Source: Sphingomonas sp. (GTDB lineage: Bacteria > Pseudomonadota > Alphaproteobacteria > Sphingomonadales > Sphingomonadaceae). Taken from it: a DNA stretch of 64,000 nucleotides. The notes below the pieces were generated by a model that did no database searches, was not told the origin of the DNA, and saw nothing but the letters and a program-made list of their open reading frames with translations. Every line of letters begins with the position of its first letter. Position 1 is the first letter of the stretch. This document shows positions 40,754 to 64,000 of this stretch, in pieces. The stretch covers positions 963 to 64,962 of the forward strand of contig NZ_JBCNMA010000005.1 in assembly GCF_039595165.1 (NCBI RefSeq). Reading direction: 5' to 3'. The translations under genes and the position numbers were made by a program.

Positions 40754-40872
40754 ACCCACTCCTTTACCGGTGACGTCGCGAAACGCAGATTCCGCAGCGC
40801 GAGTCGTGCGGCGCACGGAAGTTGTTCGGCATGGAGGGGATGTCCCCTTACTGGATATGCGCGGGGAGATCG

Positions 40873-43145: not shown

Positions 43146-46100
43146 TTATTGGTCAACCACGGCGATCACATTGTCGTCACCGTTGCGGTCCACATATTTG
43201 TTGTAGGGATCGATCCCGGCAAACGCAGGTTTGCGCTTGCTGACAATGCGGATTTCCTGGGTTCCCGACCGGACCGGCCGTCGTTCTATCAAAACGACGT
43301 CCTTGGCCGCGAACGCCCCATAGCCCGGATTCTGGTCGAACAGGCCGATATCAATCTGGTTCGCAAGGGCAGCCTTGCTTTCCTTGCCCTTGCCATCGGC
43401 GTAAAACTTGTCCGCTTCCACCGTCAGCACGGTCTCGAACGTGCCGTCGGGAAGCTTCTTGGTCGCCGCACCCCTGGCTTTCAGGTCATACAGCGTGATG
43501 CGGGCGAACAGGTCTTCGACCAGCTGCCGTTCCTCGGCATTGCGCGCGAGCGCACGGAAGCCGTCGACAAGATCGGTCGAACGCGGATAGGGCGCGCCCT
43601 TGAAGCGATACTGATTGAGCTTCGCACGCAGCATGGCGTTGACGCGATCCTCGCCGAGCCGGTCCTGCAGCAGGTACACGACCAGCGATCCCTTGCGGTA
43701 ATGGATATAGCCCTGGTTCTCGACGCGCTCGAGCGGGAGTTCCTCGATCGCCTCGCTGCCGCGGTTGCGCAGATAATTGTCGAGCTCGTACTTGAGGAAG
43801 CGTCGTATCTTGTCCTCGCCATAGAGCTGCTTCATCACCATCAGCGCCGAATATTGCGCCATGGTCTCGACCCAGATCGTGCCGCCCTGCATGTCGGCCG
43901 AGATCACCTGATGCGCCCAATATTGGTGCGCGAGCTCGTGCGCGGTGACATAGGTCACATAGTCGATCTTGTCGGGATCGGTATTGTTGGCGAGGAAGCC
44001 GATCGATTCCGAATAGGGCATGGTGCCGGCGAAGGCCTGGGCGAAGCTCGCATAGCCCGGGAACTCGATCACGCGCGCATGGTCGAACTGATAGGGTCCG
44101 AAATTGGCCTGGTAATAGGCGAGCGACGCCTTGAGCGCGGCCAGCATGCGATCGACGTTGAAGGGATGCTTGCGGTCATAGAAGACCGAAAGGCGGACGC
44201 CGTTCGCGTCGATCGCCTTCTCGGCATAATCGGCCGACTGGATCGAGAAGAAGGCGAGGATCGGCGTGTCCGAGACGAACCGTGCGGTGCGGCGGCCGCC
44301 ATGGGTCGAATCGGCGACCTTGCGCCCCGGCGCGATCGGGGTTTGCCCGGCATCGGTGGTGATGGTGATATCGCTCTTCACCCAGGCGACGTTGCCGACA
44401 TAGTTGCGCCGCTGCGCCGAGCGGTCCTCGAGCTTGGCCGGCCGCAGCTCGGCGGGCAGGCCGTATTTGCGGCGCTTGACGCGGTCGGTGAGCAGACCCT
44501 GGCGATCCATGCCGATCGCGGGCGCGATCTCGAAATTGTTGAGGAAGGTGCCGTTGCCGACCAGGCGCGTGTCGGCATCGTTGGCGGGCAGGCCGCGGGT
44601 CGCGCGAGTCACCGTGAACTTGACCGTACCGGCGGCGCCCGGCGCCAGCGGCGTCGGGAAGCGGTAGATGCGATAGTCGAAGTCCTTGTCCTCCATCGCA
44701 AGGCTGGCACCCGGCACTTCGAGTGCGGCGAGCTTGCTTTGCCGATCGGGGAAGCGGACATGGAGGTCGCGCAGCGGCGCGCCGGTGTCGTTGACGAAGC
44801 GATATTCGCCAGTGGTCGTCATGCGGCGCTCGCCCGGATGCAGGTCGACGTTCAGGCGGATGTCGGTCAGCGAGGGCTGGGCGACCTTCTCATATTTGAG
44901 GTATTTCTTCTCATAGGCGGCGAGCTGGGCCTCGACATCGTCGCGTGTGCGATAGTCGTTGAGGACGTTCATATTATAGTAGAGCCAGCCGCCGGTCGCG
45001 ACGGCGATCGCCAGCGCCGCACCGAGCACCACGCCCGGCACGCCCCTGAGCCGCTGTGCGACGCGCCTCAGCCGCGGCCGCAACCGCGTTTCGGTGCCGC
45101 GCCGCCACAGCAGGTGCGCGAGCACGGCGAGCATGATCGCCACCGCGCCCCAATAGAGTCGCAGCCACCAGCCGGTCGCGCCGCCGACCTGATCGCCGTT
45201 CATGTCCGAGAAGCGAACGGTGCCGGTCGCGCCGTAATTGTAGAGCGGATGCTCGAATCCGATCGTGTTGAGCGTGATCGTGGCCACCAGGTAGATCACC
45301 ATGATGCCCCAGCCGGCATATTTGTTGGGGCTGATCGCTTGCACGAACACCGCGAGCACGGCGAGGATCGCCATGTCGATGGTCAGCGGCACCAGATACC
45401 AGGCGAGATACTGGCCCAACTCCAGATTATCGACGCCGCGGCCGAGCTGGACGAGGATCGCCGCGATCGCGCTGATCGCCAGCGTAGCGAACAGCACCAG
45501 CGTCACCGCCAGCGTCTTGGGCACCATATAGGCCCAATTGGGCAGCGCGGTCGCATCGATGATCTCGTGCATCTTGCGCTCGCGGTCGCGCCAGACGAGT
45601 TCGCCGGCATAATAGATGGCGATGATGATCGGGATGATCCCGAACATGCCGAGCAGGTCCTGGACGACCACGAAGGTCAGCGGGCGCGAGGGCGTGCCGT
45701 AGAGCTCGTTGGCGAACATCAGCCCGCCGACCGTGTTGAACAGCCCGATCATCAGCAGCACGGCGAAGGCGGGGCTCTTGAAGACGAGGCGCATCTCGAA
45801 CTTGCAGCGCTGCCACAGCTGGGCGCCGGCCGCCGCCTCGGGGCGGACCGGCGGCAGCGTCTCGACCAGCGCCGGCGCCGTCGCCGCGAGCCTTGCCGCC
45901 TTCTTCGCCTGCTTCCGGAGCTTGCGCGCCGAGACGCCCTTCTCCGAGAAGCTGAAGCGCCAATAGGCGACGAGCAGCGCGACGAGCCCGACCCCGATCC
46001 AGATCAGCCGGTTGGCGAGCAGCGTGCCGGTGAAGGCCGGCATCATCGTGTTGCTCTCGGCCGCGGTCCAGTAACGCGTCACGTTGGAGAAGGCGGCGAG

Positions 46101-46736
46101 ACCGAACGGTTCGACGAGCCCGCCGATCTCGCGCAGCTCGGGCTTCGATCGGATAATGCCGGTGAGCACGAAATAGGCGACCAGGAACAGGACGACGCCG
46201 ACATAGGAATACATCATCGAGCGCGTCATCGTCGCGACCGCGAAGAAGATCGCGGCGGTCAGGAAGACGTTGGGCAGCCCCAGCAGGAAATAGGCGTAGA
46301 GATAGTCGTTGAGCCGGTTCGGCCCGACGGTCTCGGAATCGAGCCAGGGCATCAGCGAGCCCAGCCAGATCGCCAGCGGGATCGCGGCATAGGCGACCGC
46401 CGAGATCACCAGCGCGCCGGAGAAGCGGCCGAGCAGATAGTCGAATTTCGAGACGCGGGTGGAACGGACCATCGGGCCGAACCCGCTCTCGTCGTCGCGC
46501 ACGATGATGTTGGCGACGAAGGCGGTGGTGACGAACATGAAGAACAGCGAGAGTATGAGCAGCTTCTGCGCGAGCGCCGCCGGGCTGTTGACATGGACGT
46601 TGCCGCCGCTGCCGATCTGGATCTGCTCGATCGTGGTCGCGCCGAAGGCGAGCAGGAAGAACAGGACCGCCACCACCCAGAAGACCGGGTTGCGGAACTG
46701 GTAGCGCAGCTCGAACGCCGCGATCTTGCCGAACAT
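43146..46736 (-). CDS. Fusion protein: tandem ABC-2-type permease modules + C-terminal M1 (aminopeptidase N-like) zinc metallopeptidase
   Basis: Real start at ATG 46736 (GGGAGAGG upstream). 1196 aa. Two similar polytopic modules (MFGKIAAFELRYQFRNPVFWVV... and WQRCKFEMRLVFKSPAFAVLLM...). The C-terminal part carries HELAHQYWAH (HEXXH) with a downstream Glu (WVETMAQY). The track ORF 43146-47285 has a spurious N-terminal extension. Confidence 0.8.
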   Translation of the reverse strand: MFGKIAAFELRYQFRNPVFWVVAVLFFLLAFGATTIEQIQIGSGGNVHVNSPAALAQKLLILSLFFMFVTTAFVANIIVRDDESGFGPMVRSTRVSKFDYLLGRFSGALVISAVAYAAIPLAIWLGSLMPWLDSETVGPNRLNDYLYAYFLLGLPNVFLTAAIFFAVATMTRSMMYSYVGVVLFLVAYFVLTGIIRSKPELREIGGLVEPFGLAAFSNVTRYWTAAESNTMMPAFTGTLLANRLIWIGVGLVALLVAYWRFSFSEKGVSARKLRKQAKKAARLAATAPALVETLPPVRPEAAAGAQLWQRCKFEMRLVFKSPAFAVLLMIGLFNTVGGLMFANELYGTPSRPLTFVVVQDLLGMFGIIPIIIAIYYAGELVWRDRERKMHEIIDATALPNWAYMVPKTLAVTLVLFATLAISAIAAILVQLGRGVDNLELGQYLAWYLVPLTIDMAILAVLAVFVQAISPNKYAGWGIMVIYLVATITLNTIGFEHPLYNYGATGTVRFSDMNGDQVGGATGWWLRLYWGAVAIMLAVLAHLLWRRGTETRLRPRLRRVAQRLRGVPGVVLGAALAIAVATGGWLYYNMNVLNDYRTRDDVEAQLAAYEKKYLKYEKVAQPSLTDIRLNVDLHPGERRMTTTGEYRFVNDTGAPLRDLHVRFPDRQSKLAALEVPGASLAMEDKDFDYRIYRFPTPLAPGAAGTVKFTVTRATRGLPANDADTRLVGNGTFLNNFEIAPAIGMDRQGLLTDRVKRRKYGLPAELRPAKLEDRSAQRRNYVGNVAWVKSDITITTDAGQTPIAPGRKVADSTHGGRRTARFVSDTPILAFFSIQSADYAEKAIDANGVRLSVFYDRKHPFNVDRMLAALKASLAYYQANFGPYQFDHARVIEFPGYASFAQAFAGTMPYSESIGFLANNTDPDKIDYVTYVTAHELAHQYWAHQVISADMQGGTIWVETMAQYSALMVMKQLYGEDKIRRFLKYELDNYLRNRGSEAIEELPLERVENQGYIHYRKGSLVVYLLQDRLGEDRVNAMLRAKLNQYRFKGAPYPRSTDLVDGFRALARNAEERQLVEDLFARITLYDLKARGAATKKLPDGTFETVLTVEADKFYADGKGKESKAALANQIDIGLFDQNPGYGAFAAKDVVLIERRPVRSGTQEIRIVSKRKPAFAGIDPYNKYVDRNGDDNVIAVVDQ

Positions 46737-46750
46737 GCTGCCTCTCCCGA

Positions 46751-47653
46751 TCAGGCCGCAGCCGCGGCGGCAGCGTCGACGGGACGGCGGCTCGCGGCGA
46801 GCGTCGAGAAATAGACGTCCTCGAGCCCGCCATCGACCGCTTCGAACCCCTGGCCGGGATCGCTCGGCGAGAGGATGTGGACCACCGTGCGCCCGGCGAA
46901 CAAGCGGGTCGAAATGACCTCGTAGCGCGCGCGATATTCGTCGAGCTCGGCGCGATCGATGGTCTTGGCCCAGACGGTGCCCTTCGCGCGCTCGATCAGG
47001 TCGAGCGGGGCGCCCTCGAGCTGGATGCGGCCGCCGGCGAGCACCGCCATGCGCGGGCAGAGGTCGGCGACGTCCTCGACGATATGGGTCGAGAGGATGA
47101 CGACAACATTCTCGCCGATCTCGGCGAGCAGGTTGAGGAAGCGGTTGCGCTCCTCGGGATCGAGGCCCGCGGTCGGCTCGTCGACGATGATCAGCTCGGG
47201 ATTGCCGATCAGCGCCTGGGCGATGCCGAAGCGCTGGCGCATGCCGCCCGAGAAGCCGGCGATCGCCTTCTTGCGCACGTCCCACAGATTGACCTGGTTG
47301 AGCAGCGTCTCGACCGTGACTTTGCGCTCGCGCGCCGAGGCCACGCCCTTCAGCACGGCCATGTGATCGAGCATGTCATAGGCCGAGACGCGCGGATAGA
47401 CGCCGAAATCCTGAGGAAGATAGCCGAGCGTGCGGCGCAGCTTCTCCGGCTCGCGGATCACGTCGATGTCGCCGAAGGTGACCCGTCCCGAGGTCGGGCT
47501 CTGCAGCGTCGCGACCGTGCGCATCAGCGTCGACTTGCCCGCGCCATTGGGGCCGAGCAGGCCGAACATCCCTTTGGGGATGCTGAGACTCACATTGTCG
47601 AGCGCGCGGGTGCCGTTGGGATAGACATGAGTGAGCTGGTCGAGTTCGAGCAT
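46751..47653 (-). CDS. ABC transporter ATP-binding protein
   Basis: Walker A GPNGAGKST, signature FSGGMRQR, Walker B LIIVDEPTAGLD. Stop lies 14 nt before the permease-M1 start. Confidence 0.9.
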   Translation of the reverse strand: MLELDQLTHVYPNGTRALDNVSLSIPKGMFGLLGPNGAGKSTLMRTVATLQSPTSGRVTFGDIDVIREPEKLRRTLGYLPQDFGVYPRVSAYDMLDHMAVLKGVASARERKVTVETLLNQVNLWDVRKKAIAGFSGGMRQRFGIAQALIGNPELIIVDEPTAGLDPEERNRFLNLLAEIGENVVVILSTHIVEDVADLCPRMAVLAGGRIQLEGAPLDLIERAKGTVWAKTIDRAELDEYRARYEVISTRLFAGRTVVHILSPSDPGQGFEAVDGGLEDVYFSTLAASRRPVDAAAAAAA

Positions 47654-48293
47654 GAGAATCCCCCGGGGCTGTCTCGCACCAGCCTAGCGAGTGTTTTACA
47701 AAGGTAAAGCGGTGCTGGTGCCAACGCCTGGCACAGGCCGGGCAGACCGTGCCGGGCCTTCGCGCCGTAGAACCCCGGCAGGAAAGCAACCGGAACCGCA
47801 ACCGCTAGCCCGATTAGTCCGAAGCGACGCCGAACAAGGTATGTGAGCGGGAGCGGCACAAGCTGAAGGCAACCTGCGCAAATCGTCTCATGTCAGTCCA
47901 TCGGAAGCGGACCTGCTCTCATCGCTCCAGTTCGTGAAGCAGTTGCCGGGCGAAGAGGTTCAGCTTGGGGATGCAATCGGCAAAGACTTCGAAGTGCCGC
48001 TATGGAATCGGCATGGCCCCACAGGCAGCAAACAACGCCTCCCGACGTCCGTGAGGCATTGCTGACGTTACGCTTCAACCGTGTTTTGCCACGTGCGCCG
48101 ATTTTGCAGTGACCCTTTGTGCGTCTGCTCGCTGCCACCGGGCGCTCCGCACCTCGACATAGCCGGACTTGCCTCGCTCGAAGGCAAACTTCCTCCAAAT
48201 CACCCACTCAATCGATAGGATTTTACACGGAGCCATCAAAGACGATTCAAGGGAGATTCGTCGATGCGTCGCCTTGCCTGATGCCTAGGCGGT

Positions 48294-48310
48294 TCGCGGT
48301 CTGACCGCGA
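48294..48310. promoter_or_regulatory. Perfect 17-bp palindrome TCGCGGTC-T-GACCGCGA
   Basis: Lies in the 816-bp non-coding spacer, 160 bp upstream of the TBDR ATG at 48470. Dimeric-regulator-site geometry. Confidence 0.3.
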
Positions 48311-48469
48311 CCGCTACAGGACCAATCCTGCTCCGCTCACTACCGCCGCCGAAGCTTTCCGGCGCGCATGGTCATGCCTTCGGACCGCCTCGTTGCGGCG
48401 GCCGGGGAGGATGCCGTGCGCCCGCAGGACAGCGGCCGCGCCGAACACCAAAAAAAGGGATTCCGTCTC

Positions 48470-50854
48470 ATGATTCCAGCCCGACGCGCGCCGTTGCTCG
48501 TTGCTGTGCCCATAGCCTCGCTTTTCGTTCTTCCGGCCTACGCCCAGACCGCGGTCGCGATCGGCGCATCCGCCGTGACGGAGGACGAGGCGGCGCCGAC
48601 CGACGACGCGGCGCAGGGCGACATCGTCGTCACCGCGCGCCGCCGCGAGGAGCGCGCGCAGGACGTGCCGATCGCCTTGAGCGTCGTGTCCGGCGACCTG
48701 ATCGACCGCACCGGCCGCACCAACCTGATCCAGATCGCCGAGCTCACGCCCAGCCTCACGATCCGCAGTAACAACGCCCGCAACACCTTCGCCAACATCC
48801 GCGGGCTCGGCTCCAACTCCGATCAGAATGACGGGCTCGAGGTCGGGGTCGGCTTTTATGTCGACGACGTCTATTTCGGCCGCATCGGCGCGTCGCAGTT
48901 CGACCTGATCGACCTCGACCGCGTCGAAGTGCTGCGCGGACCGCAGGGCACGCTGTTCGGCAAGAACACCACCGCTGGCGCGATCAACATCACCACACGT
49001 GCGCCGAGCTTCGAGCCCGAGCTGCGGGCCGAGGCGAGCCTGGGTGAGCGCGGCTATCACCAGGTTCGCGCCTCCATATCTGGGCCGATCATCGCGGACC
49101 GGGTGGCGGCGCGGCTCACGGTTTCGGACACCCATTCGGACGGCCTGCTGCGCAACGCGTACAATGGCCGGCTGGTCAACGACTTCGATAATTTGACCGT
49201 GCGCGGGCAGCTGCTGGTGACGCCGACCGAAGCGCTGTCGATCCGTCTCACCGGCGACTATTCGAAGCAGACCAGCTACGCGCGCGCATCGAGCATCGTG
49301 GGGGTCTTTACCCGCTTCGCCAATGGCGCAGCGATCTCGAACAATTTCAACGACCGCGTCGCGCGTACCGGCTACGTCCTGCCCTACGACCCCAACGATC
49401 CCTTCGCCCGTATCGTCGACTTCAACGCCGACGTGCAGGCCGACATGGAGGGCTATGGCGTCTCGGGCAAGCTCGATTGGGATCTGGGCGGAGCGACGCT
49501 CACCGCGATCACGGCCTATCGCTGGTGGGACTGGTATCCGCTCAACGACCAGGACAACACCTCGCTGACGATCAACATCCGCGGCGGCACCACCAACCTC
49601 CAGCGCCAGTTCAGCCAGGAGCTGCGGCTCACCTCCAACGGCGAGCGGACGATCGACTACACCGTCGGGCTCTATTACTTCTGGCAAGTCATCAAGGGGC
49701 TCGGCCGATACCAGCTCGGCCCCGACTATGCGGTGTGGAACAGCCCCAACGCCAATCGCGCGCTGGCCAACTACGCCTATACCAACTTCCAGTCGAACTC
49801 GGTCATCGAGCCGCGCACCAAGAGCTATGCCGCGTTCGGCCAGCTCACCTGGAACATCAGCGACGCGCTGAAGCTCACCGCCGGGCTGCGCTTCACGCAT
49901 GAGGACAAGACCGGGCTGTTCGACCAGCGCACCGTCGCGGGCAACGACCTCTCCACCTTGTCCGACGCGGATCGCGCGACCGCGCAGGGGCTGCGCGACG
50001 CGCTCTACCCCGAGATCCGCTACGAGGTCGCGACCCAGGACGATGCGCTCACCGGCAGCGTCAACCTCGCCTGGAAGCCGGCGCAGGACGTGCTGCTCTA
50101 TGCGAGCTACGCGCGCGGCAGCAAGTCGGGCGGGCTCAGCCTCGGCACGCTGCCGGCCGGCGTCTCGGCGGTGGTCAAACCCGAGACGGTGAACGCCTGG
50201 GAGCTCGGTCTCAAGAGCCAGGTCTGGGACCGCCGCGTCACCTTCAACGCCGCCGCCTTCTGGACCGAGGTCAGGAACTATCAGGCCGCGATCACCGAGA
50301 ATATCGGCGGCACCACCTCGTTCCGCCGTTACATCGCCAACATCCCCGGCGTACGTTCGCGCGGCGTGGAGGCCGACCTGACGTTCGCGCCGAGCCGCTT
50401 CGTCAGCTTCACCGCCTCGGCCGCCTATGTCGACGCCACCTACAAGGGCTATGTCAACGCCCAGAACGCGGCCGAGCGGCGCAACGTCAGCGAGGTCCAG
50501 GACCTGTCGGGCGAGCAGCTCGCGAACACGCCGCGCTTCGTCTACACGCTCGCCACCGACCTGGTGCAGCCGATCGGCGACGAGGAGGGATATCTCCGCG
50601 TCGACTACACCCATCGCTCGTCCTACGACACCAGCGGCAGCAAGTCGCAATATACGCTGATCGAGCCCTATGGCGTGCTCAATGCGCGGATCGGCGCGCG
50701 CATCGACGACAGCCGCTTCGACTTCGCGATCTGGGTGCGCAACCTGCTGGACGAGCGCTACTTCACCGCGCTCGGCGCCGCCAACAACGGCCTGGTCACC
50801 GGCAATATCGGCGACCCGCGCACGATCGGCGCCACCGTCCGCCTCAACTTCTGA
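48470..50854 (+). CDS. TonB-dependent receptor
   Basis: Start at ATG 48470 (AAAGGGA upstream). Signal peptide MIPARRAPLLVAVPIASLFVLPAYAQ. Plug GDIVVTARRREERAQDVPIALSVVSGDLI...RVEVLRGPQGTLFGKNTTAGAINI. Terminal ...ATVRLNF. Confidence 0.9.
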   Translation: MIPARRAPLLVAVPIASLFVLPAYAQTAVAIGASAVTEDEAAPTDDAAQGDIVVTARRREERAQDVPIALSVVSGDLIDRTGRTNLIQIAELTPSLTIRSNNARNTFANIRGLGSNSDQNDGLEVGVGFYVDDVYFGRIGASQFDLIDLDRVEVLRGPQGTLFGKNTTAGAINITTRAPSFEPELRAEASLGERGYHQVRASISGPIIADRVAARLTVSDTHSDGLLRNAYNGRLVNDFDNLTVRGQLLVTPTEALSIRLTGDYSKQTSYARASSIVGVFTRFANGAAISNNFNDRVARTGYVLPYDPNDPFARIVDFNADVQADMEGYGVSGKLDWDLGGATLTAITAYRWWDWYPLNDQDNTSLTINIRGGTTNLQRQFSQELRLTSNGERTIDYTVGLYYFWQVIKGLGRYQLGPDYAVWNSPNANRALANYAYTNFQSNSVIEPRTKSYAAFGQLTWNISDALKLTAGLRFTHEDKTGLFDQRTVAGNDLSTLSDADRATAQGLRDALYPEIRYEVATQDDALTGSVNLAWKPAQDVLLYASYARGSKSGGLSLGTLPAGVSAVVKPETVNAWELGLKSQVWDRRVTFNAAAFWTEVRNYQAAITENIGGTTSFRRYIANIPGVRSRGVEADLTFAPSRFVSFTASAAYVDATYKGYVNAQNAAERRNVSEVQDLSGEQLANTPRFVYTLATDLVQPIGDEEGYLRVDYTHRSSYDTSGSKSQYTLIEPYGVLNARIGARIDDSRFDFAIWVRNLLDERYFTALGAANNGLVTGNIGDPRTIGATVRLNF

Positions 50855-50877
50855 CGACCGATCCAGGGAGATTTTCG

Positions 50878-52419
50878 ATGTTCGACAGACGTGGTTTCCT
50901 GCGCGGTGGTGCGCTCGGCCTGGGTGGGGTGTTCGCAGGCGGCGTCGCCTGGTCGCGGCCCCGCGACCTGGTTCGCACCATCCTGCCCTCGGCGACGCAC
51001 GACACGCTCGCGCTCAAGGTGCTGCTCGACCGCCCGCCGAGCGAGGCGCCCTTGCTCGCGATCGACGGACGCTTCGTGAAGGCGCAGCGCGTCGACCAGG
51101 ACGGCTATAGCTGGGCCTTCGTCCAGCGCGGGCTTGCGGCCGGCAAGCGCCACCGGCTGACGCTTACAGACGCAAGCGGCGCCGCGCTGCGCGAGCCGTG
51201 GCAGCTCAGCACCCTGCCCGCGCCCGACGCGACGCCCGAACGGTTCCGCGTCCTCTTCTTCACCTGCGCCGGCGGCGACGAGGCGCTCGGCCCGAACCAG
51301 TTCCTGCCGATCGCCACGCGGCGCGCGCTGCTCGACCGCGCGCTGAGCTTCCAGCCCGATCTCGCCATCGCCAATGGAGACCATGTCTATTGGGACCAGA
51401 AGACCGTTCTCGAATATGGCCGCAATCCGGAACGGCGCGCCAAGGCGGCGGAGTTCCAGCGCGAGATCGCCTATATCGACGAGAGCAAGGCGTTCGACGA
51501 CGAGGCCAATCGTCGGTCGGTCAACACCGTGGCGGGGCGCCAGATCGCGGCACTCTACGAAGACCGGTTCGCCTCGGTGCCGCTGCACTTCATCACCGAC
51601 GACCACGACTATTTCGAGAACGACAATGCCGGGGAGTGGGGCTACGCCTTTCCGCCGCGCCCCTTCATCCTCGGCCTGCTGCGGCGTACGCAGCAGCTCG
51701 CCTATCCGCTGGCGCTGGGACGGCCTGATCTCCCCACATGGCAGGCGGAGACGCTGGAGACCGTGCGGATCGGCAAACTGATCGAACTGGCGCTGTTCGA
51801 TTGCCGGCGCGGCTGGTCGACCGACGGCAACGGGGTGGTGCTCCCCGAGATCGAGCGGCTGCTGCTCGACCGGCTGCGCAGCTCGGACGCGGCGCATTAT
51901 GTCCATGTCCCCTCCAACCCGTTCGGCTGGTCGAAGGGCGCGCTGGGCGAATGGTATGCCGACGGTCCGCCGGGCGAGACACCCCAGGTCAACGACAAAC
52001 GCTATTGGCAGCAGAGCTGGTTCGACCAGCACCAGCGCCTCGTCCGCGCGCTGAGCGAGCAGCGCGACCGCGCCGCGATCACCATTTCGGGCGACCTGCA
52101 TGCGGTCGGCGCGACCCGGATCACACGCAGCGGCGATCTCGATCTCAGCCGTAACCCGGTGCGCGCGCTCGTCGCCGGGCCGGTCGGCACCGCCACCAAC
52201 GGCTTCCCGAGCAGCGCGCGGGGCGCGTTCCCGTTCACCCCGGCGGCGCTGCGCGCGGACCCGCTCAACAAGCTCGAGGAAAAGAACGGCTTCACCCTGT
52301 TCGACGTGACGCGCGACAAGATCGAGGTCCGCCAGTTCCGCTGGCGCCCGCCCGAGCCGGTCGAAGCGATCGCCAGGCTTGAGCCCTATTCGACCTTCAC
52401 CATCGAGCGGCCGGTATGA
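50878..52419 (+). CDS. Tat-exported PhoD-like metallophosphatase superfamily protein
   Basis: GGGAGA RBS. Twin-arginine signal MFDRRGFLRGGALGLGGVFAGG. Metallophosphatase-like motifs RVLFFTCAG, IANGDHVYWD, FITDDHDYFEND, ISGDLHA. The family call is by motif only. Confidence 0.6.
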   Translation: MFDRRGFLRGGALGLGGVFAGGVAWSRPRDLVRTILPSATHDTLALKVLLDRPPSEAPLLAIDGRFVKAQRVDQDGYSWAFVQRGLAAGKRHRLTLTDASGAALREPWQLSTLPAPDATPERFRVLFFTCAGGDEALGPNQFLPIATRRALLDRALSFQPDLAIANGDHVYWDQKTVLEYGRNPERRAKAAEFQREIAYIDESKAFDDEANRRSVNTVAGRQIAALYEDRFASVPLHFITDDHDYFENDNAGEWGYAFPPRPFILGLLRRTQQLAYPLALGRPDLPTWQAETLETVRIGKLIELALFDCRRGWSTDGNGVVLPEIERLLLDRLRSSDAAHYVHVPSNPFGWSKGALGEWYADGPPGETPQVNDKRYWQQSWFDQHQRLVRALSEQRDRAAITISGDLHAVGATRITRSGDLDLSRNPVRALVAGPVGTATNGFPSSARGAFPFTPAALRADPLNKLEEKNGFTLFDVTRDKIEVRQFRWRPPEPVEAIARLEPYSTFTIERPV

Positions 52420-53630
52420 GCGGCATCCCCCGACGCGCATTGATCACGAGTGGCGCCGGGGCGATCGCCTTGGCAACCGCGCCGGCGCTCGCCGCGCCGC
52501 CTCGCGCCGCCGCACGGCGCGTAGTCGGCGAGCTGGAGATCTTCCGCATTCCGGTGAACCATCGCGGCGACTGGATACTCGTCCGGCTCGGCGGGGGCGG
52601 CGCGCTCAAGGGGCTGGGCGACGCCTCGCATGGTGGTGACGATGCGCGTACCATCGCCTATCTCAGGCGCTTCGCGGAACTGCTGAGGGGCCGCAGCATC
52701 TTCGACGTCGAATGGTTTCGCCAGGCGACGGCCAAGGCGATCGCGACGGAGCCACGGGCCTCGGCAATCGTCGCGGCGAGTGCGCTGGAACAGTGCCTGT
52801 GGGATCTGATCGGCCACGCCCTCGAGGTGCCGGTCCACGACCTGTTCGGCGGACGGTTGCGGGACAGCATTCCGCTCTACGCCAACATCAACCGCTCGAC
52901 CATCCAGCGTACGCCTGACGGCTTCGCCCGGATGGCGGAGAAGGCGGTCGCCGGCGGCTTCGATGCGATCAAGCTCGCCCCGTTCGACGCGATCCCGGCC
53001 GATCCGGCGCAGCGTGGCGACATCCGCCAGCTGACCGATCAGGGCGTCGCCTGCGCCGCCGCGGTGCGCCAGGCGATCGGCCCCGGCCGCCGCCTGCTGA
53101 TCGACGCGCATAGCCGCTTCACGCGCGAACAAGGCATCGAACTGGCAGCGCGGCTCGCGCCGCTCGACCTCTACTGGCTGGAGGAAGTGACGCCAGCGGA
53201 TCCGATCACCGATCTCGCCGCGATCAATCGCGCCGCCGCCATGCCTACCGCCGGGGGCGAGGCGGTGCGCGGGATCGCCGCCTTCTACGACTATATCCGC
53301 GCGGGCGCGGTCGACATCGCCATGCCCGACGTCAAGATCTGCGGCGGCATGCTCGAGCTCAGGAAGATCGCCGCACTGGCCGAGGCCGCCGGGCTTGACG
53401 TCTCGCCCCACGGCCCGGCGAGCCCGGTCGGCAACCTGGCCGCCGCGCACGTCGCAGCGACACTGCCGAATTTCCAGATTCTCGAGCACGCCTTCGGGGA
53501 GGTGTCGTGGCGCGACGAATTGCTGGCGGAGGGCGAGCCGATCCGGCGCGGGAGCCTTCTCTTGGGATTCGGGCCGGGTCTTGGCGCGTCATTGAACGAA
53601 CAATTGCTGACGCGCCTTTCGCGTCGATAG
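52416..53630 (+). CDS. Enolase-superfamily (mandelate racemase/muconate lactonizing type) enzyme with an N-terminal Tat signal
   Basis: ATG overlaps the upstream stop (ATGA). MSGIPRRALITSGAGAIALATAPALAAP is a Tat-type signal. Capping domain (GDWILVRLGGGGALKGLGDASHGG), barrel motifs LLIDAHSRF, LYWLEEV, AGGE, MPDVKICGGM, SPHG. Confidence 0.75.
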   Translation: MSGIPRRALITSGAGAIALATAPALAAPPRAAARRVVGELEIFRIPVNHRGDWILVRLGGGGALKGLGDASHGGDDARTIAYLRRFAELLRGRSIFDVEWFRQATAKAIATEPRASAIVAASALEQCLWDLIGHALEVPVHDLFGGRLRDSIPLYANINRSTIQRTPDGFARMAEKAVAGGFDAIKLAPFDAIPADPAQRGDIRQLTDQGVACAAAVRQAIGPGRRLLIDAHSRFTREQGIELAARLAPLDLYWLEEVTPADPITDLAAINRAAAMPTAGGEAVRGIAAFYDYIRAGAVDIAMPDVKICGGMLELRKIAALAEAAGLDVSPHGPASPVGNLAAAHVAATLPNFQILEHAFGEVSWRDELLAEGEPIRRGSLLLGFGPGLGASLNEQLLTRLSRR

Positions 53631-53670
53631 ATCGCTGTCGCGCAAGAACCGATTGACGTAATTCATCTGC

Positions 53671-53686
53671 GATAATAGCTATCATC
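53671..53686. promoter_or_regulatory. 16-bp near-palindrome GATAATAGCTATCATC (14/16) in an AT-rich patch upstream of fucD
   Basis: Core ATAGCTAT is a perfect palindrome. A TTGACG hexamer lies at 53653-53658. Candidate operator for the IclR regulator at the operon end. Confidence 0.35.
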
Positions 53687-53718
53687 CGTGAAATATAACG
53701 AGCCGTGATCGATGGCGG

Positions 53719-55799
<2,081 letters not shown>

Positions 55800-55818
55800 G
55801 CAGAGCGGAGGATCATCG

Positions 55819-57093
55819 ATGAACAAGGCTGCGTCCCCCCGATCCTACGCACCCGCCATCGCCCTGACGGTGAGCCTGTTCTTCCTGTGGGGCGTCGCCA
55901 ACAACCTCAACGACATCCTCATCGCGCAGTTCAAGAAAGCCTTCGTGCTGTCGGATTTCGGCACGAGCTTCGTGCAGCAGGTCTTCTATCTCGGCTATTT
56001 CCTGCTCGCGATCCCCGCCTCGTTCCTGATGCGCGCGCAAGGGTACAAGGCGGCGATCGTGACCGGGCTGCTGCTGTACGGCGCCGGCGCGCTGCTCTTC
56101 TATCCGGCGGCCGCGACCAGCCAGTATCTGCTGTTCCTGCTGGCCCTGTTCGTCATCGCCGCCGGGCTCGCGTTCCTCGAGACCGCCGCCAACCCGCTGA
56201 TGACCGAGCTCGGTGACCCGGCGGGCGCGGCGCGGCGGATCAACTGGGCACAGGCCGCCAATCCGCTGGGTGCGCTGGCCGGAATCCTCATCGGCCGCAC
56301 CTTCATCCTGTCGGGCATCCACCATGACGAGGCGGCGCTGGCGGCGCTCAGCGAAGCGCAGCGGCTCGACTATTATCGTGCCGAGACGCTGGCGGTGCAG
56401 ATGCCCTATCTCGTCCTCGGGCTGGTGGTGCTGTGCTTCGCCGTGGCGGCGATGGTCATCCGCTTTCCCGCCGGCGAGCAGCACGATGCGCAGGGGACCG
56501 AGGGCCGCCGCTTCCGCGAGCTGTTCGGCAAGCCGCGGCTGTTGGCGGCGGCGACCGCGCAATTCTTCTATGTCGGCGCGCAAGTCGGCGTGTGGAGCTA
56601 CACGATCCGCTACGCGCAGGTGAATGTCCCCGGGATCGGCGAGAAGGCAGCGGCTGACATGCTGTTCGTCTCGCTCGTCCTGTTCGCCGCCGGGCGGTTC
56701 GCTGGCACCGCGATGATGAGCCGCGTCGCGCCGGTCACGCTGCTCGCCGCGTTCGGCAGCGCCGCATTGCTGCTTACCGGCTTCGCCGCGCTGGCGGGCG
56801 GGCAGGCCGGCCTCTACGCCCTGGTTGCCGCGAGCTTCTTCATGTCGATCCAGTTCCCGACGATCTTCGCGCTCGGCGTCGATGGCCTGGGGCCGCTGCG
56901 CAAATGGGGCGCGTCGCTGATCATCATGGCCATCATCGGCGGCGCGGTGCTCACCGGCCTGATGGGCTGGGTGTCGGACGCGACGAGCATCACCACCGCG
57001 ATGCTGGTCCCCGTCGGCTGCTTCGCCGCGATCGTCGCCTTCGCATTGTCGGTCCGGCGGCGCGCCTTTGCGTTCGCCGGACGCGACGCATAG
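55819..57093 (+). CDS. fucP: L-fucose:H+ symporter (MFS, FucP family)
   Basis: GCGGAGGA RBS. N-terminus LTVSLFFLWGVANNLNDILIAQFKKAFVLSDFGTSFVQQVFYLGYFLLAIPAS is the FucP hallmark. 12 TM. Confidence 0.85.
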   Translation: MNKAASPRSYAPAIALTVSLFFLWGVANNLNDILIAQFKKAFVLSDFGTSFVQQVFYLGYFLLAIPASFLMRAQGYKAAIVTGLLLYGAGALLFYPAAATSQYLLFLLALFVIAAGLAFLETAANPLMTELGDPAGAARRINWAQAANPLGALAGILIGRTFILSGIHHDEAALAALSEAQRLDYYRAETLAVQMPYLVLGLVVLCFAVAAMVIRFPAGEQHDAQGTEGRRFRELFGKPRLLAAATAQFFYVGAQVGVWSYTIRYAQVNVPGIGEKAAADMLFVSLVLFAAGRFAGTAMMSRVAPVTLLAAFGSAALLLTGFAALAGGQAGLYALVAASFFMSIQFPTIFALGVDGLGPLRKWGASLIIMAIIGGAVLTGLMGWVSDATSITTAMLVPVGCFAAIVAFALSVRRRAFAFAGRDA

Positions 57094-57101
57094 GCAGGCG
57101 C

Positions 57102-57869
57102 ATGGCCGACGAGAGCAACAAGGAGCGGCGCCCCTATGCGGCACCCGCCCTGGAACGCGGATTCGAGATCTTCGAGCTGTTCGCGGCGCAGCCGGGCGAA
57201 TTGACGATCACCGAGATCGCGCAGGGCCTGGGGCGCTCGATCAGCGAAGTCTTCCGCATCGTCATGGTGATGGAGCGGAGCGGCTGGCTGAACAAGAATG
57301 CCGACCGCTACAGCGTCTCGTTCCGCATGCTCGACATCGCTTTCCGCGCGACCCCGGCGCGGACGCTCACGCGGCTCGCCGCGCCCGTGATGGAGCGGCT
57401 CGCCACGCAGACGAACCAGTCCAGTCACTTGGTTGTGCGTTCGGAAGGGCGCGGGCTGGTGATCCATCGGCAGGAAAGCGCGGGGCCGGGGGTCTTCGCG
57501 ATGCGCACCGGCAGCCTGATCGACCTCGTGTCGAGCTGCTCGGGCCATGTCCTGCTCGCCTATGAAAGCGACACGCGGCGGGCGGCGATCATCGCGTTGC
57601 TGGAGGCGCAATCCCGCGACGCGGCGGTGCAGCTCGAGCCTCGGTTCGCGGAGGTCCGCGCGCGCGGCTACGAGCTGCAGCCCAGCGCGCGGCTGGCCGG
57701 GGTGCAGGACATCAGCGTCCCGATCTTCGCGTTCGACGGCGCGATCGCCGCGGCGCTGACCATCCCCTATCTCGTCCGCATCGACGGCTCGATGGCCACC
57801 GATCTCGATCAGACACGCGACTGTCTGATCGAAGCCGGGAGAGAGATCTCGGCGCTGCTCGGCGTGTAG
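57102..57869 (+). CDS. IclR family transcriptional regulator
   Basis: Start at ATG 57102. Winged HTH ALERGFEIFELFAAQPGELTITEIAQGLGRSISEVFRIVMVMERSGWL, then an IclR effector domain. Confidence 0.85.
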   Translation: MADESNKERRPYAAPALERGFEIFELFAAQPGELTITEIAQGLGRSISEVFRIVMVMERSGWLNKNADRYSVSFRMLDIAFRATPARTLTRLAAPVMERLATQTNQSSHLVVRSEGRGLVIHRQESAGPGVFAMRTGSLIDLVSSCSGHVLLAYESDTRRAAIIALLEAQSRDAAVQLEPRFAEVRARGYELQPSARLAGVQDISVPIFAFDGAIAAALTIPYLVRIDGSMATDLDQTRDCLIEAGREISALLGV

Positions 57870-58142
57870 GCCTATCCCGGCAGGCCGCTGCGCCATGCGG
57901 CGACCGCCTTGCCTCCTGCCCGAGGGTGACCCCTGCGAACGCCGTACATGCTGGGTTCTGCTCGGACTTTAACGGCTTGCCGAAACCCGTCCGCGCACGC
58001 ATCGCGCGACTGGTCGCAAATCGTTTTCAGAAAATGGATCCACAACGCGGTTTCGTTGGTTGTGCCCCGAAATTGCGGCTCAATGTATCGGCACCGTGCT
58101 GCGACGGGACTTGCGCGCTCGGTCGTCAAAGGGGAGCGAGGC

Positions 58143-62764: not shown

Positions 62765-62768
62765 CGGC

Positions 62769-64000
62769 TCAGCCGATCAGCGCCGCCAGCGCCGCGTCAT
62801 GGCCGGGCTGCTCCGCCGCCGCGCGCGCCATCGCGTCGCGGATGCGCTCGAGCTGGGCACGGTTGGTCGCGGAATCGATCGTGTCGGCCATCGGGTGATA
62901 GCCCGCGGCGTGAATCCCCTGGCCATTGAGCACCGCGAGCCAGCTCGCCTCGCGGAACAGCTCTTCGCTGCCGAGCATTAGCCGTCCCGACCGGCGATAT
63001 TCGCGCTCGCGTTCGACCAGCGTGTCGGGCAGCGCCATGTGCCGGCATTGTGCCCAGAGCGGCTCGGGCTTGTCGGCCGTGGCGTGGTAATGGAGGATCA
63101 GGAAGTCTTTGATATTGTCCATGTCGGCGGCGAACAGCGCGTTGAAGCGCGCCGCGAGAGCGGGGTCGCAGTCGCGGTCGGGGAATAGCGTCGAGAGCTT
63201 GGCGATCGCGCTCTGGATCAGATGGATGCTGGTCGATTCGAGCGGCTCGAGAAACCCCGCCGACAGCCCGATCGCGACGACATTGCCGATCCACGCCCGC
63301 CGTCGTCGCCCGGCGGTGAAGCGCAGGACACGCGGCTCCGCCATCGCCGCGCCGTCGAGATTGGCGAGCAGGGTTGCCGCCGCCTCGTCGTCGCTCAGCA
63401 ACGTGCTGCAATAGACATAGCCGTTGCCGGTGCGGTGCTGAAGCGGGATGCGCCACTGCCAGCCGGCTGCGCGGGCGGTCGAGCGCGTATAGGGCGTGGT
63501 CTCCGCGGCGCGCTCGCACGGCACGGCCACGGCGCGGTCGCAGGGCAGCCAGTGCGACCAGTCGTCATAGCCGGCCTGCATCTCGCCCTCGATCAGCAGC
63601 GCGCGGAAGCCCGAGCAGTCGATGAACAGCTCGCCCGGCAAGCGCTCGCCGCGAACCGTCGCGAGCGCGGTGACGAAGCCCGTTTCGGAATGGCGCTCGA
63701 CCTCCGCCAGCCGCCCTTCAACGCGGACGACGCCGTGCGCCTCGGCCAGCTCGCGCAGGTGCCGCGCATAGAGGCCGGCATCGAAATGATAGGCATAGCC
63801 GAGCGTGGACAGGATCGAGCGGGGATCGTCGGACGGCCTGGCGAAGCGGTTCGCCTGCGCGAGGCGCGCGGCGAGCGAGAAGTCCGCGAGCGACACGTCC
63901 AGCCCTTCCGCGCGCGCCTTGAGCCAGCGGTGATGGAAGGCGACGCCCGGCAGCGGCGCGCCATATTGGCCGAACGGATGGAGATAGCGGTGCCCCGGCC
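62769..64000 (-). CDS. Tryptophan-halogenase-like FAD-dependent protein, 5' end beyond the window
   Basis: The frame stays open to position 64000 (..HRYLHPFGQYGAPLPGVAFHHRWLKARAEGLDVSLADFSL...). Motifs FHHRWL, YHFDAGLYARHLRELAE and FIDCSGFRALL are typical of the family found beside TBDRs. Confidence 0.8.
   Translation of the reverse strand, partial: PGHRYLHPFGQYGAPLPGVAFHHRWLKARAEGLDVSLADFSLAARLAQANRFARPSDDPRSILSTLGYAYHFDAGLYARHLRELAEAHGVVRVEGRLAEVERHSETGFVTALATVRGERLPGELFIDCSGFRALLIEGEMQAGYDDWSHWLPCDRAVAVPCERAAETTPYTRSTARAAGWQWRIPLQHRTGNGYVYCSTLLSDDEAAATLLANLDGAAMAEPRVLRFTAGRRRRAWIGNVVAIGLSAGFLEPLESTSIHLIQSAIAKLSTLFPDRDCDPALAARFNALFAADMDNIKDFLILHYHATADKPEPLWAQCRHMALPDTLVEREREYRRSGRLMLGSEELFREASWLAVLNGQGIHAAGYHPMADTIDSATNRAQLERIRDAMARAAAEQPGHDAALAALIG

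What the first reader, a model, noticed from the sequence alone, without database searches (positions are those of the whole stretch)
48470..53630. TBDR operon encoding two Tat-exported enzymes, including an apparently periplasmic enolase-superfamily member
The TBDR (48470-50854) is followed 23 nt later by a PhoD-like metallophosphatase with a textbook twin-arginine signal (DRRGFLRG). That gene is followed, with a 4-nt ATGA overlap, by an enolase-superfamily (MR/MLE-type) protein. Its first 28 residues also look like a Tat signal: PRRALIT, a hydrophobic AGAIALATAPALA stretch, and ALA-AP. Enolase-superfamily acid-sugar dehydratases and racemases are normally cytoplasmic. Tat export would suit a folded, Mg2+-loaded enzyme. 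No in-frame ATG or GTG occurs between the signal and the capping domain, and the overlap with the upstream gene supports the long start. A periplasmic phosphatase or phosphodiesterase plus a periplasmic enolase-type enzyme behind a TBDR suggests pre-processing of a phosphorylated or acidic glycan before uptake. I have not seen this arrangement described.
Basis: partly seen in the sequence, partly recalled or inferred. Interest (0 to 1): 0.65.

Follow-up and report, generated by a model that had tools for sequence, protein, structure and literature searches.

The report
Tat-exported enolase-superfamily dehydratase clade
A sugar-acid dehydratase of a family that normally works inside the cell carries a conserved export signal here and in hundreds of relatives, so it most likely works in the periplasm next to an outer-membrane importer and a phosphatase; no paper I could find describes this.

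Summary
Three + strand genes lie in a row: a TonB-dependent receptor (48470-50854), 23 nt later a PhoD-like metallophosphatase (50878-52419), then an MR/MLE enolase-superfamily gene (52416-53630) joined by an ATGA overlap. Both enzymes start with twin-arginine (Tat) signals.

The enolase signal is conserved. R6 and R7 are invariant in 31 aligned homologues. 95 of 120 homologues pass the TatP motif plus h-region test, and most failures are start-codon miscalls. Some Bryobacterales orthologues carry RR plus a lipobox instead. Relatives below about 45% identity lack the extension.

The mature enzyme keeps every catalytic residue of E. coli D-galactonate dehydratase, at 25% identity and below the equivalog cutoff.

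In 85 loci the clade lies within 3 kb of sulfatases (27), TonB-type barrels (25) or PhoD-like genes (7). One locus has sulfatase, PhoD-like and Tat-enolase in one operon. The L-fucose genes downstream are not conserved neighbours.

Best reading: a periplasmic acid-sugar dehydratase acting after TonB-dependent import and de-esterification. Export and substrate are predicted, not shown. Six literature searches found no description. It is a new variant of a known kind, of moderate to high interest.

The parts
48470..50854 (+). TonB-dependent outer-membrane receptor (794 aa) with a Sec-type signal, MIPARRAPLLVAVPIASLFVLPAYA|Q
   Evidence: Pfam Plug 2.7e-16 and TonB_dep_Rec_b-barrel 1.4e-38. No NCBIfam equivalog is reached. 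Orthologous TBDRs lie directly upstream of the PhoD-like gene in L001, L006, L082/83, L095-L097.
50878..52419 (+). PhoD-like / purple-acid-phosphatase-like metallophosphoesterase (513 aa), divergent subfamily
   Evidence: Pfam PhoD scores only 21.8 bits, below the cutoff of 27. AF2 model pLDDT is 91.9. The best Foldseek hit is B. subtilis PhoD 2yeq (E 3e-21, TM 0.6, 14% id), followed by purple acid phosphatases. The profile hits the secreted alkaline phosphatase 9uya at 2e-7, aligning C130, DDHD 241-244 and GDxH 405-408. These residues plus GDHxY 167-171 are invariant in 42 homologues.
50878..50955 (+). Predicted Tat signal of the PhoD-like protein (MFDRRGFLRGGALGLGGVFAGGVAWS|R)
   Evidence: R4 and R5 are invariant in A2. 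It matches the TatP regex with 17 uncharged residues. RR occurs in the first 35 residues of 110 of 120 homologues, and 78 pass the strict test. AF2 pLDDT is below 50 for residues 1-20. The cleavage site is inferred.
52416..52419 (+). ATGA start/stop overlap between the PhoD-like and enolase genes
   Evidence: Read directly from the sequence. The same overlap occurs in L097.
52416..52493 (+). Predicted Tat signal of the enolase-superfamily protein (MSGIPRRALITSGAGAIALATAPALA|APP)
   Evidence: R6 and R7 are invariant in 31 homologues. RRALI is followed by a 22-residue uncharged stretch. E. coli DgoD aligns only from residue 37. AF2 pLDDT is below 50 for residues 1-29. Lipobox variants occur in Bryobacterales. 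The cleavage site is inferred.
52416..53630 (+). MR/MLE enolase-superfamily enzyme (404 aa precursor) with a galactonate-dehydratase-like active site
   Evidence: Pfam MR_MLE_N 5e-09 and MR_MLE_C 6e-55. K186, D230, H232, E256, E282, D305, H332 and E357 are invariant. They align with DgoD K144, D183, H185, E209, E235, D258, H285 and E310. The closest structure is 2qq6 (E 2.5e-49; TM 0.83).

Best explanation
The three genes form one operon for periplasmic handling of an imported, esterified acidic carbohydrate.

Proposed steps:
1. The TonB-dependent receptor brings the substrate across the outer membrane.
2. The PhoD-like metallophosphoesterase is exported folded by the Tat pathway and removes a phosphate ester. 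In many other lineages a sulfatase takes this place.
3. The enolase-superfamily enzyme is also exported folded (Mg2+-loaded, probably oligomeric) by the Tat pathway. In the periplasm it acts as an acid-sugar dehydratase.

Its predicted mechanism follows D-galactonate dehydratase. The His332-Asp305 dyad removes the proton alpha to the carboxylate. Mg2+, bound by D230, E256 and E282, stabilises the enediolate. His232 protonates the leaving 3-OH. The product is a 2-keto-3-deoxy acid, which an inner-membrane carrier then takes up.

What is shown: the gene arrangement; the conserved signal sequences; the complete catalytic residue set; the fold; and the recurrent neighbourhoods.

What is inferred: actual export (my estimate ~0.8), dehydratase chemistry (~0.5), the order of steps and the substrate.
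For: - Arrangement and overlap.
- Tat motif: RR is invariant and the h-region is variable but hydrophobic. 95 of 120 homologues pass the TatP regex test. At least 62 of 85 genomic loci have the motif in frame. In L001 the RR lies upstream of the annotated start.
- Six Bryobacterales orthologues have RR followed by L-A-G/A-C lipoboxes. The N-terminus therefore evolves as an export signal.
- The extension lies outside the fold. DgoD aligns from residue 37 and AF2 pLDDT is below 50 for residues 1-29.
- Only 5 of 120 more distant full-length representatives have a Tat-like N-terminus. Median lengths are 378 aa without it and 410 aa with it.
- All DgoD catalytic residues are matched one for one with identical spacing.
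- The structural neighbours with an assigned function are acid-sugar enzymes; the closest are uncharacterised.
- Neighbours within 3 kb in 85 loci: sulfatase 27, TBDR or OMP barrel 25, PhoD-like 7, type-I phosphodiesterase 5.
- L163 has sulfatase, PhoD-like and Tat-enolase in one overlapping operon.
- The TBDR, PhoD-like, ENO module is conserved in four sphingomonad loci, and L097 has a two-PhoD version.
- In L034 and L039 the next gene downstream of ENO belongs to a neighbour cluster whose representative reads like an MFS transporter; this was judged by eye from the sequence, with no family search.
Against: - There is no experimental evidence of export. No TatP or SignalP run was possible.
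- The Pfam TAT_signal HMM does not hit the window protein. Only 1 of 31 members hit, at E 4.9, although HMMER's filters drop such short matches.
- No clear Shine-Dalgarno sequence lies before the ATG at 52416, and a gene caller preferred TTG L19.
- About 40% of loci show none of the tested partner families within 3 kb.
- From the PhoD-like side, only 4-5 of 80 loci have an adjacent MR/MLE gene.
- In three marine or soil loci a distant PhoD-like gene is followed by a signal-less MR/MLE gene. The two activities therefore need not share a compartment.
- The substrate is unknown. The enzyme shares 25% identity with DgoD and scores 150.9 bits against an equivalog cutoff of 311.
- No RNA or proteome data exist for this sequence.
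Confidence: 0.6

Rival explanations
1. The protein is exported as predicted, but the chemistry is not simple dehydration of a free aldonate. It could be a cycloisomerase or lactone-opening enzyme, an epimerase, or an enzyme that eliminates sulfate or phosphate beta to the carboxylate. It might also act before the hydrolase rather than after it.
For: - The structural neighbours include galactarolactone cycloisomerase (4hpn) and 3,6-anhydro-D-galactonate cycloisomerase (5olc) at similar scores to the dehydratases.
- The closest solved structures (2qq6, 2poz, 3rcy, 4e5t) have no assigned function.
- The enzyme does not reach any NCBIfam equivalog cutoff.
- The frequent sulfatase and PhoD-like partners point to esterified substrates.
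Against: The full DgoD-type set is invariant, including H232. That residue corresponds to the general acid for loss of the 3-OH (H185 in DgoD, by my knowledge of that enzyme). No evidence favours any specific alternative.
Confidence: 0.2
2. The enolase gene belongs functionally to the downstream L-fucose cluster (fuconate-dehydratase-like MR/MLE, L-fucose dehydrogenase, FucP, IclR). Together they would form a 6-deoxy-sugar catabolic unit fed by the TBDR.
For: The genes are on the same strand, only 88 nt separate 53630 from 53719, and no terminator-like site was found in between. The downstream genes match L-fucose dehydrogenase (417 bits, cutoff 300) and FucP (376 bits, cutoff 280.4).
Against: The fucose genes are absent next to the orthologous module in L001, L006 and L082/83, where RimK and TauE genes follow instead. 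They are also absent from the other 80 loci, apart from weak paralogue hits in L070. The cluster already has its own signal-less MR/MLE dehydratase.
Confidence: 0.1
3. The N-terminal extension is not a working Tat signal. Translation starts downstream (TTG L19, as a gene caller chose), or the peptide is retained, and the enzyme is cytoplasmic like other MR/MLE members.
For: The database call P0001 starts at L19. No strong Shine-Dalgarno sequence lies before 52416. The TAT_signal HMM is silent. All characterised MR/MLE enzymes known to me are cytoplasmic.
Against: Selection keeps RR plus a hydrophobic stretch plus AxA or a lipobox across several phyla, while the sequence in between drifts. The short calls in other genomes are demonstrably truncations. 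A start at L19 would leave a 17-residue tail with no counterpart in signal-less relatives.
Confidence: 0.06
4. The Tat signal is used but not cleaved, or the enzyme goes elsewhere. It could stay anchored to the inner membrane, become an outer-membrane lipoprotein, or be released outside the cell.
For: Lipobox variants in Bryobacterales (L043, L044, L052, L071, L072, L074) and an Acidimicrobiia homologue with a Tat signal (L050) show that the final location differs between lineages.
Against: The window protein has no cysteine in the signal and has a standard A-L-A|A site. Its h-region (22 uncharged residues, mean Kyte-Doolittle 1.31) is typical of cleaved Tat signals.
Confidence: 0.04

Closest known systems
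E. coli D-galactonate dehydratase DgoD (enolase superfamily, mandelate racemase subgroup)
   Same: It has the same two-domain fold. Every catalytic position is matched with identical spacing: D183/H185/E209/E235/D258/H285/E310 correspond to D230/H232/E256/E282/D305/H332/E357.
   Different: Identity is only 25%. The NCBIfam galactonate dehydratase score is 150.9 against a cutoff of 311. DgoD has no N-terminal extension and sits in a cytoplasmic dgoRKADT operon. The window enzyme has a 26-residue Tat signal and sits behind a TBDR.
PDB 2QQ6, MR/MLE-like protein of Rubrobacter xylanophilus, and related structural-genomics entries (2POZ, 3RCY, 4E5T, 3T4W)
   Same: These are the closest solved structures: sequence E 2.5e-49, Foldseek TM 0.83, 32% identity.
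   Different: No function is assigned in the PDB titles. The match starts at query residue 50 and chain residue 19, so no signal-length extension is evident. A full-text search for '2QQ6' found nothing relevant.
Bacillus subtilis PhoD (PDB 2YEQ), a Tat-dependent phosphodiesterase/alkaline phosphatase
   Same: It is the best fold match for the window's 513-aa protein (E 3e-21). The Cys, DDH(D/E) and GDxH positions align with a secreted PhoD-type phosphatase (9uya) in the profile search, and GDxxY is invariant in the family. Both have a Tat signal.
   Different: Identity is 14%. The Pfam PhoD score is below the gathering threshold and there is no NCBIfam hit. It forms a separate subfamily of about 390 database clusters, many unnamed.
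3,6-anhydro-D-galactonate cycloisomerase of Zobellia galactanivorans (PDB 5OLC), carrageenan utilisation
   Same: It is an enolase-superfamily enzyme. By my knowledge it is encoded among sulfatases and TonB-dependent receptors for a sulfated polysaccharide. It is a structural neighbour of the window enzyme.
   Different: Identity is 25%. By my knowledge it is a cytoplasmic step acting after uptake. No export signal has been described for it.
TBDR-centred carbohydrate utilisation loci of Proteobacteria (CUT loci) and Bacteroidota PULs
   Same: A TonB-dependent importer is co-transcribed with exported substrate-processing enzymes.
   Different: No glycoside hydrolase or lyase lies in the conserved three-gene module. 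The exported partner is an enolase-superfamily enzyme, which I have not seen reported for such loci. This comparison rests on my own knowledge.

Membership tests
Enolase superfamily, MR subgroup (acid-sugar dehydratase type) | N-terminal capping domain plus C-terminal modified TIM barrel | tested here: met
   Pfam MR_MLE_N and MR_MLE_C. AF2 pLDDT 91.2 and Foldseek TM 0.83 to 2qq6.
Enolase superfamily, MR subgroup (acid-sugar dehydratase type) | Three carboxylate metal ligands at the ends of barrel strands 3, 4 and 5 | tested here: met
   D230, E256 and E282 are invariant in 31 homologues and align with DgoD D183, E209 and E235.
Enolase superfamily, MR subgroup (acid-sugar dehydratase type) | His-Asp dyad as general base (strands 7 and 6) | tested here: met
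   H332 and D305 are invariant and align with DgoD H285 and D258.
D-galactonate dehydratase (DgoD) orthologue | Score above the curated equivalog cutoff (NF010624) and a dgo-type context | tested here: not met
   150.9 bits against a cutoff of 311. Identity is 25%. No dgoK or dgoA neighbours were found.
Twin-arginine (Tat) signal peptide | RR motif near the N-terminus in a (S/T)RRxFLK-like context | tested here: met
   PRRALI matches the TatP regex. RR is invariant in A1.
Twin-arginine (Tat) signal peptide | Uncharged, moderately hydrophobic h-region of at least 12 residues followed by an AxA site | tested here: met
   There are 22 uncharged residues with mean Kyte-Doolittle 1.31, and A-L-A|A at residues 24-27. 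The cleavage itself is inferred.
Twin-arginine (Tat) signal peptide | Match to curated Tat-signal HMMs (PF10518 / TIGR01409) | tested here: inconclusive
   The window protein has no hit. One of 31 members hits PF10518 at E 4.9. HMMER's filters drop such short, weak matches.
Twin-arginine (Tat) signal peptide | tatC-dependent export of the folded protein | not testable with these tools
   This needs fractionation or reporter fusions in wild-type and tat-mutant strains.
PhoD-like metallophosphatase (PF09423) | Pfam gathering threshold | tested here: not met
   21.8 bits against 27. Many homologues do carry a precomputed PF09423 hit.
PhoD-like metallophosphatase (PF09423) | PhoD fold (beta-sandwich plus metallophosphatase domain) | tested here: met
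   Foldseek best hit is 2yeq (E 3e-21, TM 0.60-0.61), followed by purple acid phosphatases.
PhoD-like metallophosphatase (PF09423) | Metal-ligand motifs (Cys, GDxxY, DDH(D/E), GDxH) | tested here: met
   C130, G167-D168-H169-x-Y171, D241-D244, and G405-D406-x-H408 are invariant in 42 sequences. C130, DDHD and GDxH align with PDB 9uya in the profile search.
PhoD-like metallophosphatase (PF09423) | Phosphomono- or phosphodiesterase activity | not testable with these tools
   Needs an enzyme assay.

The most novel reading that the evidence does not exclude
A whole clade of enolase-superfamily enzymes works outside the cytoplasm. It comprises hundreds of sequences in Acidobacteriota, Alphaproteobacteria and other phyla, as soluble Tat substrates or Tat lipoproteins. 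In the most novel version these enzymes do not merely dehydrate free aldonates. They would use the superfamily's alpha-proton abstraction on sulfated or phosphorylated sugar acids in the periplasm, for example beta-elimination of the ester group or conversion of de-esterified products. That would form a previously unrecognised periplasmic step in the turnover of sulfated or phosphorylated acidic glycans in soil.
Probability: 0.15. Interest if true: 0.85.

Novelty: new variant of a known kind. Interest (0 to 1): 0.62.

Why it matters
Enolase-superfamily (MR/MLE) enzymes are a textbook case for assigning function from sequence and genome context. They are treated as cytoplasmic catabolic enzymes.

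A bounded clade with a conserved Tat signal changes which substrates should be screened. These would be compounds present in the periplasm, probably de-esterified acid sugars. It also changes which neighbours count as context: sulfatases, PhoD-like phosphatases and TonB-dependent receptors, rather than kinases and aldolases.

The finding also exposes a systematic annotation error. Gene callers and NCBI annotation cut off the signal in some members.

The clade is abundant in Acidobacteriota and sphingomonads from soil and plant habitats, so it may mark an unrecognised route for organic sulfate or phosphate ester turnover. Sphingomonas aerophila DSM 100044 is an isolate from a culture collection and carries the same three-gene module (L006), so the prediction can be tested directly.

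Tried and rejected
- Pfam and NCBIfam Tat-signal HMMs gave no usable signal for such a short motif. I used the TatP regex plus an h-region rule instead.
- The promoter and terminator scan of 47600-58200 found nothing informative: 0 promoter-like sites, and terminator-like sites at the chance level. The operon boundaries rest on spacing only.
- The search for sequencing runs found only DNA metagenomes. A plant metagenome holds 94% of the sampled words. There is no RNA, so no transcript evidence.
- Six literature searches returned nothing relevant. They covered enolase superfamily with twin-arginine and periplasmic; mandelate racemase with Tat signal; sulfatase with mandelate racemase and TonB; periplasmic with galactonate dehydratase; mandelate racemase with signal peptide and periplasm; and 2QQ6.
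- I looked at the contexts of signal-less relatives (P0247, P0250, P0261) for substrate hints. One has an adjacent MFS sugar transporter and the others were uninformative.
- I rejected the idea that the fucose cluster is part of the module, because it is not conserved next to orthologues.
- I rejected the idea that PhoD-like and MR/MLE are an obligate pair. From the PhoD-like side the pairing appears in only 4-5 of 80 loci.
- My own gene calling in the loci (a GC3 heuristic) is crude; for example, it missed the SDR gene in the window. Neighbour counts were therefore taken from tblastn hits rather than from those calls.

Full report
**1. What is in the window**

Between 48470 and 53630 the + strand carries three tightly packed genes.

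- A TonB-dependent receptor (48470-50854) has Pfam Plug and beta-barrel domains and a Sec-type signal.
- 23 nt later, behind a GGGAGA ribosome-binding site, comes a 513-aa protein (50878-52419) starting MFDRRGFLRGG.
- A 404-aa MR/MLE enolase-superfamily protein (52416-53630) follows. Its ATG overlaps the preceding stop as ATGA, and it starts MSGIPRRALITSGAGAIALATAPALAAPP.

One qualification applies. There are in-frame TTG codons at L9 and L19, and the protein database's own call for this gene (P0001, 386 aa) uses L19, which deletes the RR motif.

**2. Is the enolase N-terminus a real Tat signal?**

They do not.

- Of the 120 best homologues (58-85% identity, about 400 aa), 110 have RR in the first 35 residues. 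95 pass the TatP regex RR.[FGAVML][LITMVF] followed by at least 12 uncharged residues.
- The failures are near misses (RRSIL, RRTIL) or truncated start calls. In the Sphingomonas BIN5 genome the annotated protein starts MKALS..., but the frame reads MRRRSLMKALS... just upstream.
- In a 31-sequence alignment R6 and R7 are invariant. The next ~25 residues share only their hydrophobic character, as expected of a signal peptide and not of a folded segment.
- A scan of one genome per species found at least 570 relatives. They come from Acidobacteriota (Acidobacteriaceae, Bryobacterales, Solibacteraceae, Vicinamibacterales, Blastocatellia), Sphingomonas, Rhizomicrobium, Burkholderiales and one Acidimicrobiia.
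- Reading upstream in frame, whatever start was called, at least 62 of 85 loci show the motif. Most of the rest failed only because my anchor pattern missed them.
- Six Bryobacterales orthologues have RR followed by a lipobox (L-A-G/A-C), that is, Tat-lipoprotein signals. Two kinds of export signal at the same position are hard to explain unless the protein leaves the cytoplasm.

**3. The extension is outside the fold and specific to this clade**

E. coli DgoD aligns only from residue 37. AlphaFold2 gives pLDDT below 50 for residues 1-29 and 91 overall.

I also searched 1.84 billion 50%-identity cluster representatives. Relatives below about 45% identity are about 378 aa long and start directly with the first strand (MKITxL..VNHRGDW..). 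Only 5 of 120 full-length representatives have a Tat-like N-terminus. The signal is therefore an acquisition of one bounded clade within an otherwise signal-less subfamily.

**4. What the enzyme is**

K186, D230, H232, E256, E282, D305, H332 and E357 are invariant in the clade. They align one for one, with identical spacing, with DgoD K144, D183, H185, E209, E235, D258, H285 and E310.

By my knowledge of that enzyme, these are the three Mg2+ ligands, the His-Asp base, the general acid for loss of the 3-OH, and the carboxylate-binding Glu.

It is not a DgoD orthologue. Identity is 25%, and it scores 150.9 bits against a cutoff of 311. The closest structures (2qq6, 2poz, 3rcy, 4e5t, 3t4w) are structural-genomics entries with no function in their titles. 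Beyond them come galactarolactone and 3,6-anhydro-galactonate cycloisomerases and mannonate or galactonate dehydratases.

An acid-sugar dehydratase is the best-supported chemistry. A cycloisomerase or another alpha-proton-abstraction reaction is not excluded.

**5. The 513-aa protein**

Pfam PhoD is below threshold (21.8 vs 27 bits). There is no NCBIfam hit and no PDB hit with the single sequence.

A confident AF2 model (pLDDT 91.9) matches B. subtilis PhoD best (2yeq, E 3e-21, TM 0.6, 14% identity), then purple acid phosphatases. A family profile reaches a secreted alkaline phosphatase (9uya, E 2e-7) and 2yeq (0.028). The residue-by-residue alignment shown, to 9uya, aligns the invariant Cys130, DDHD 241-244 and GDxH 405-408. 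GDHxY 167-171 is also invariant.

Its Tat motif is invariant in the 42-sequence alignment (R4, R5) and is seen in 110 of 120 homologues.

It is therefore a divergent PhoD/PAP-like metallophosphoesterase that is Tat-exported, like PhoD itself.

**6. Neighbourhoods**

The TBDR, PhoD-like, enolase module recurs in sphingomonads: L001, L006 (S. aerophila DSM 100044) and L082/83. L097 has a version with two PhoD-like paralogues and again an ATGA overlap.

The downstream fucose genes of the window (a fuconate-dehydratase-like MR/MLE, L-fucose dehydrogenase, FucP and IclR) are not found next to any orthologue.

Across 85 loci, genes within 3 kb of the Tat-enolase are:

| Neighbour family | Loci |
|---|---|
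| Sulfatase | 27 |
| TonB-type or Acidobacterial OMP barrel | 25 |
| PhoD-like | 7 |
| Type-I phosphodiesterase | 5 |

- Acidobacteriaceae show OMP barrel, sulfatase, enolase, sulfatase on one strand. One locus has an FGE-sulfatase gene directly downstream.
- L163 has sulfatase, PhoD-like and a Tat-bearing enolase relative (42% identity) as one overlapping operon.
- Seen from the PhoD-like family, the pairing is branch-specific, in 4-5 of 80 metagenome loci.
- In three loci a distant PhoD-like gene is followed by a different, signal-less MR/MLE gene with 28% identity.

**7. Explanation**

The common logic is an outer-membrane TonB-dependent importer, a periplasmic ester hydrolase (phosphatase here, sulfatase elsewhere) and a periplasmic enolase-type enzyme. 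I propose import, then de-esterification, then dehydration of an acid sugar to a 2-keto-3-deoxy acid in the periplasm, before uptake.

Tat export suits a Mg2+-dependent enzyme of a superfamily whose members are usually oligomers.

My estimates:

| Step | Probability |
|---|---|
| Export | ~0.8 |
| Dehydratase chemistry | ~0.5 |
| Whole scheme | ~0.6, if the substrate is left open |

The rivals are other chemistry after export (0.2), membership of the fucose pathway (0.1), a cytoplasmic protein with a later start (0.06), and a different final location (0.04).

**8. Novelty**

Six full-text searches found no description of an exported or periplasmic MR/MLE enzyme. Source names are generic, such as 'mandelate racemase/muconate lactonizing enzyme family protein' and 'galactonate dehydratase'.

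The fold, the catalytic machinery, the Tat pathway and TBDR loci are all known. The compartment and the partner set are new for this superfamily, so this is a new variant of a known kind.

Limits: there is no export experiment, no dedicated signal predictor was available, no transcript data exist, and the substrate is unknown.

Noticed in passing
window 53719-57869 (+): A complete-looking non-phosphorylative L-fucose cluster lies here. It comprises a signal-less MR/MLE protein (435 aa, fuconate-dehydratase-like), L-fucose dehydrogenase (NF052481, 417 bits, overlapping the previous gene by 4 nt), the FucP permease (376 bits) and an IclR regulator. It is not conserved next to orthologues of the three-gene module.
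   Followed up: partly
window 57948-63896: A second TonB-dependent receptor (57948-60719) is followed, with the start codon at its last base, by a 681-aa ORF with no Pfam hit (60719-62764). A tryptophan-halogenase-like gene lies on the minus strand (62769-63896; PF04820, 7.7e-129).
   Followed up: partly
window 52416-52472; L001 9990-10010: There is a systematic start-codon error. The database call for the window enolase starts at TTG L19 (386 aa), and the NCBI annotation of the Sphingomonas BIN5 orthologue starts at an internal Met. Both remove the RR motif. About 10-15 of the 120 homologues look truncated in the same way.
   Followed up: yes
L043, L044, L052, L071, L072, L074 (N-termini of the enolase orthologues): These Bryobacterales orthologues carry RR followed by a lipobox, for example MNRREFLASFGSAAALAGC. 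They are predicted Tat-dependent lipoproteins.
   Followed up: partly
L163 4496-8843: In a 983-kb metagenome contig, a sulfatase, a PhoD-like protein (Tat) and an enolase relative (42% identity, MNRRSLLATGAKAAAAAVL) form one overlapping operon. An APC-type permease-like ORF follows, judged by eye with no family search.
   Followed up: partly
L091 7001-9762; L138; L152: A distant PhoD-like gene (43% identity, with a Tat signal) is followed 23 nt later by a different MR/MLE gene with no signal (28% identity to the window enzyme). A 405-aa protein with no Pfam hit comes next. PhoD-like and MR/MLE genes have thus been paired at least twice independently.
   Followed up: partly
window 50878-50955 and homologues P0121-P0201: The h-region of the PhoD-like signal (ALGLGGxFxGGVAWS) is unusually well conserved and glycine-rich for a signal peptide. 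I have no explanation for this.
   Followed up: no
window 43146-47653 (-): A large fusion protein with an ABC-2 permease part and an M1 peptidase domain sits next to an ABC ATPase ORF (46751-47653; assigned from its Walker motifs read by eye, no family search). An M28 peptidase lies at 39122-40816 (-).
   Followed up: no
L084 / L085 (Rhizomicrobium): Here the Tat-enolase sits between an FAD-binding/Fer2 pair plus an NMT1-like protein (upstream) and a 994-aa TBDR (downstream). PQQ dehydrogenase and pectate-lyase-like genes are nearby. This is a third type of context, hinting at periplasmic sugar oxidation.
   Followed up: no
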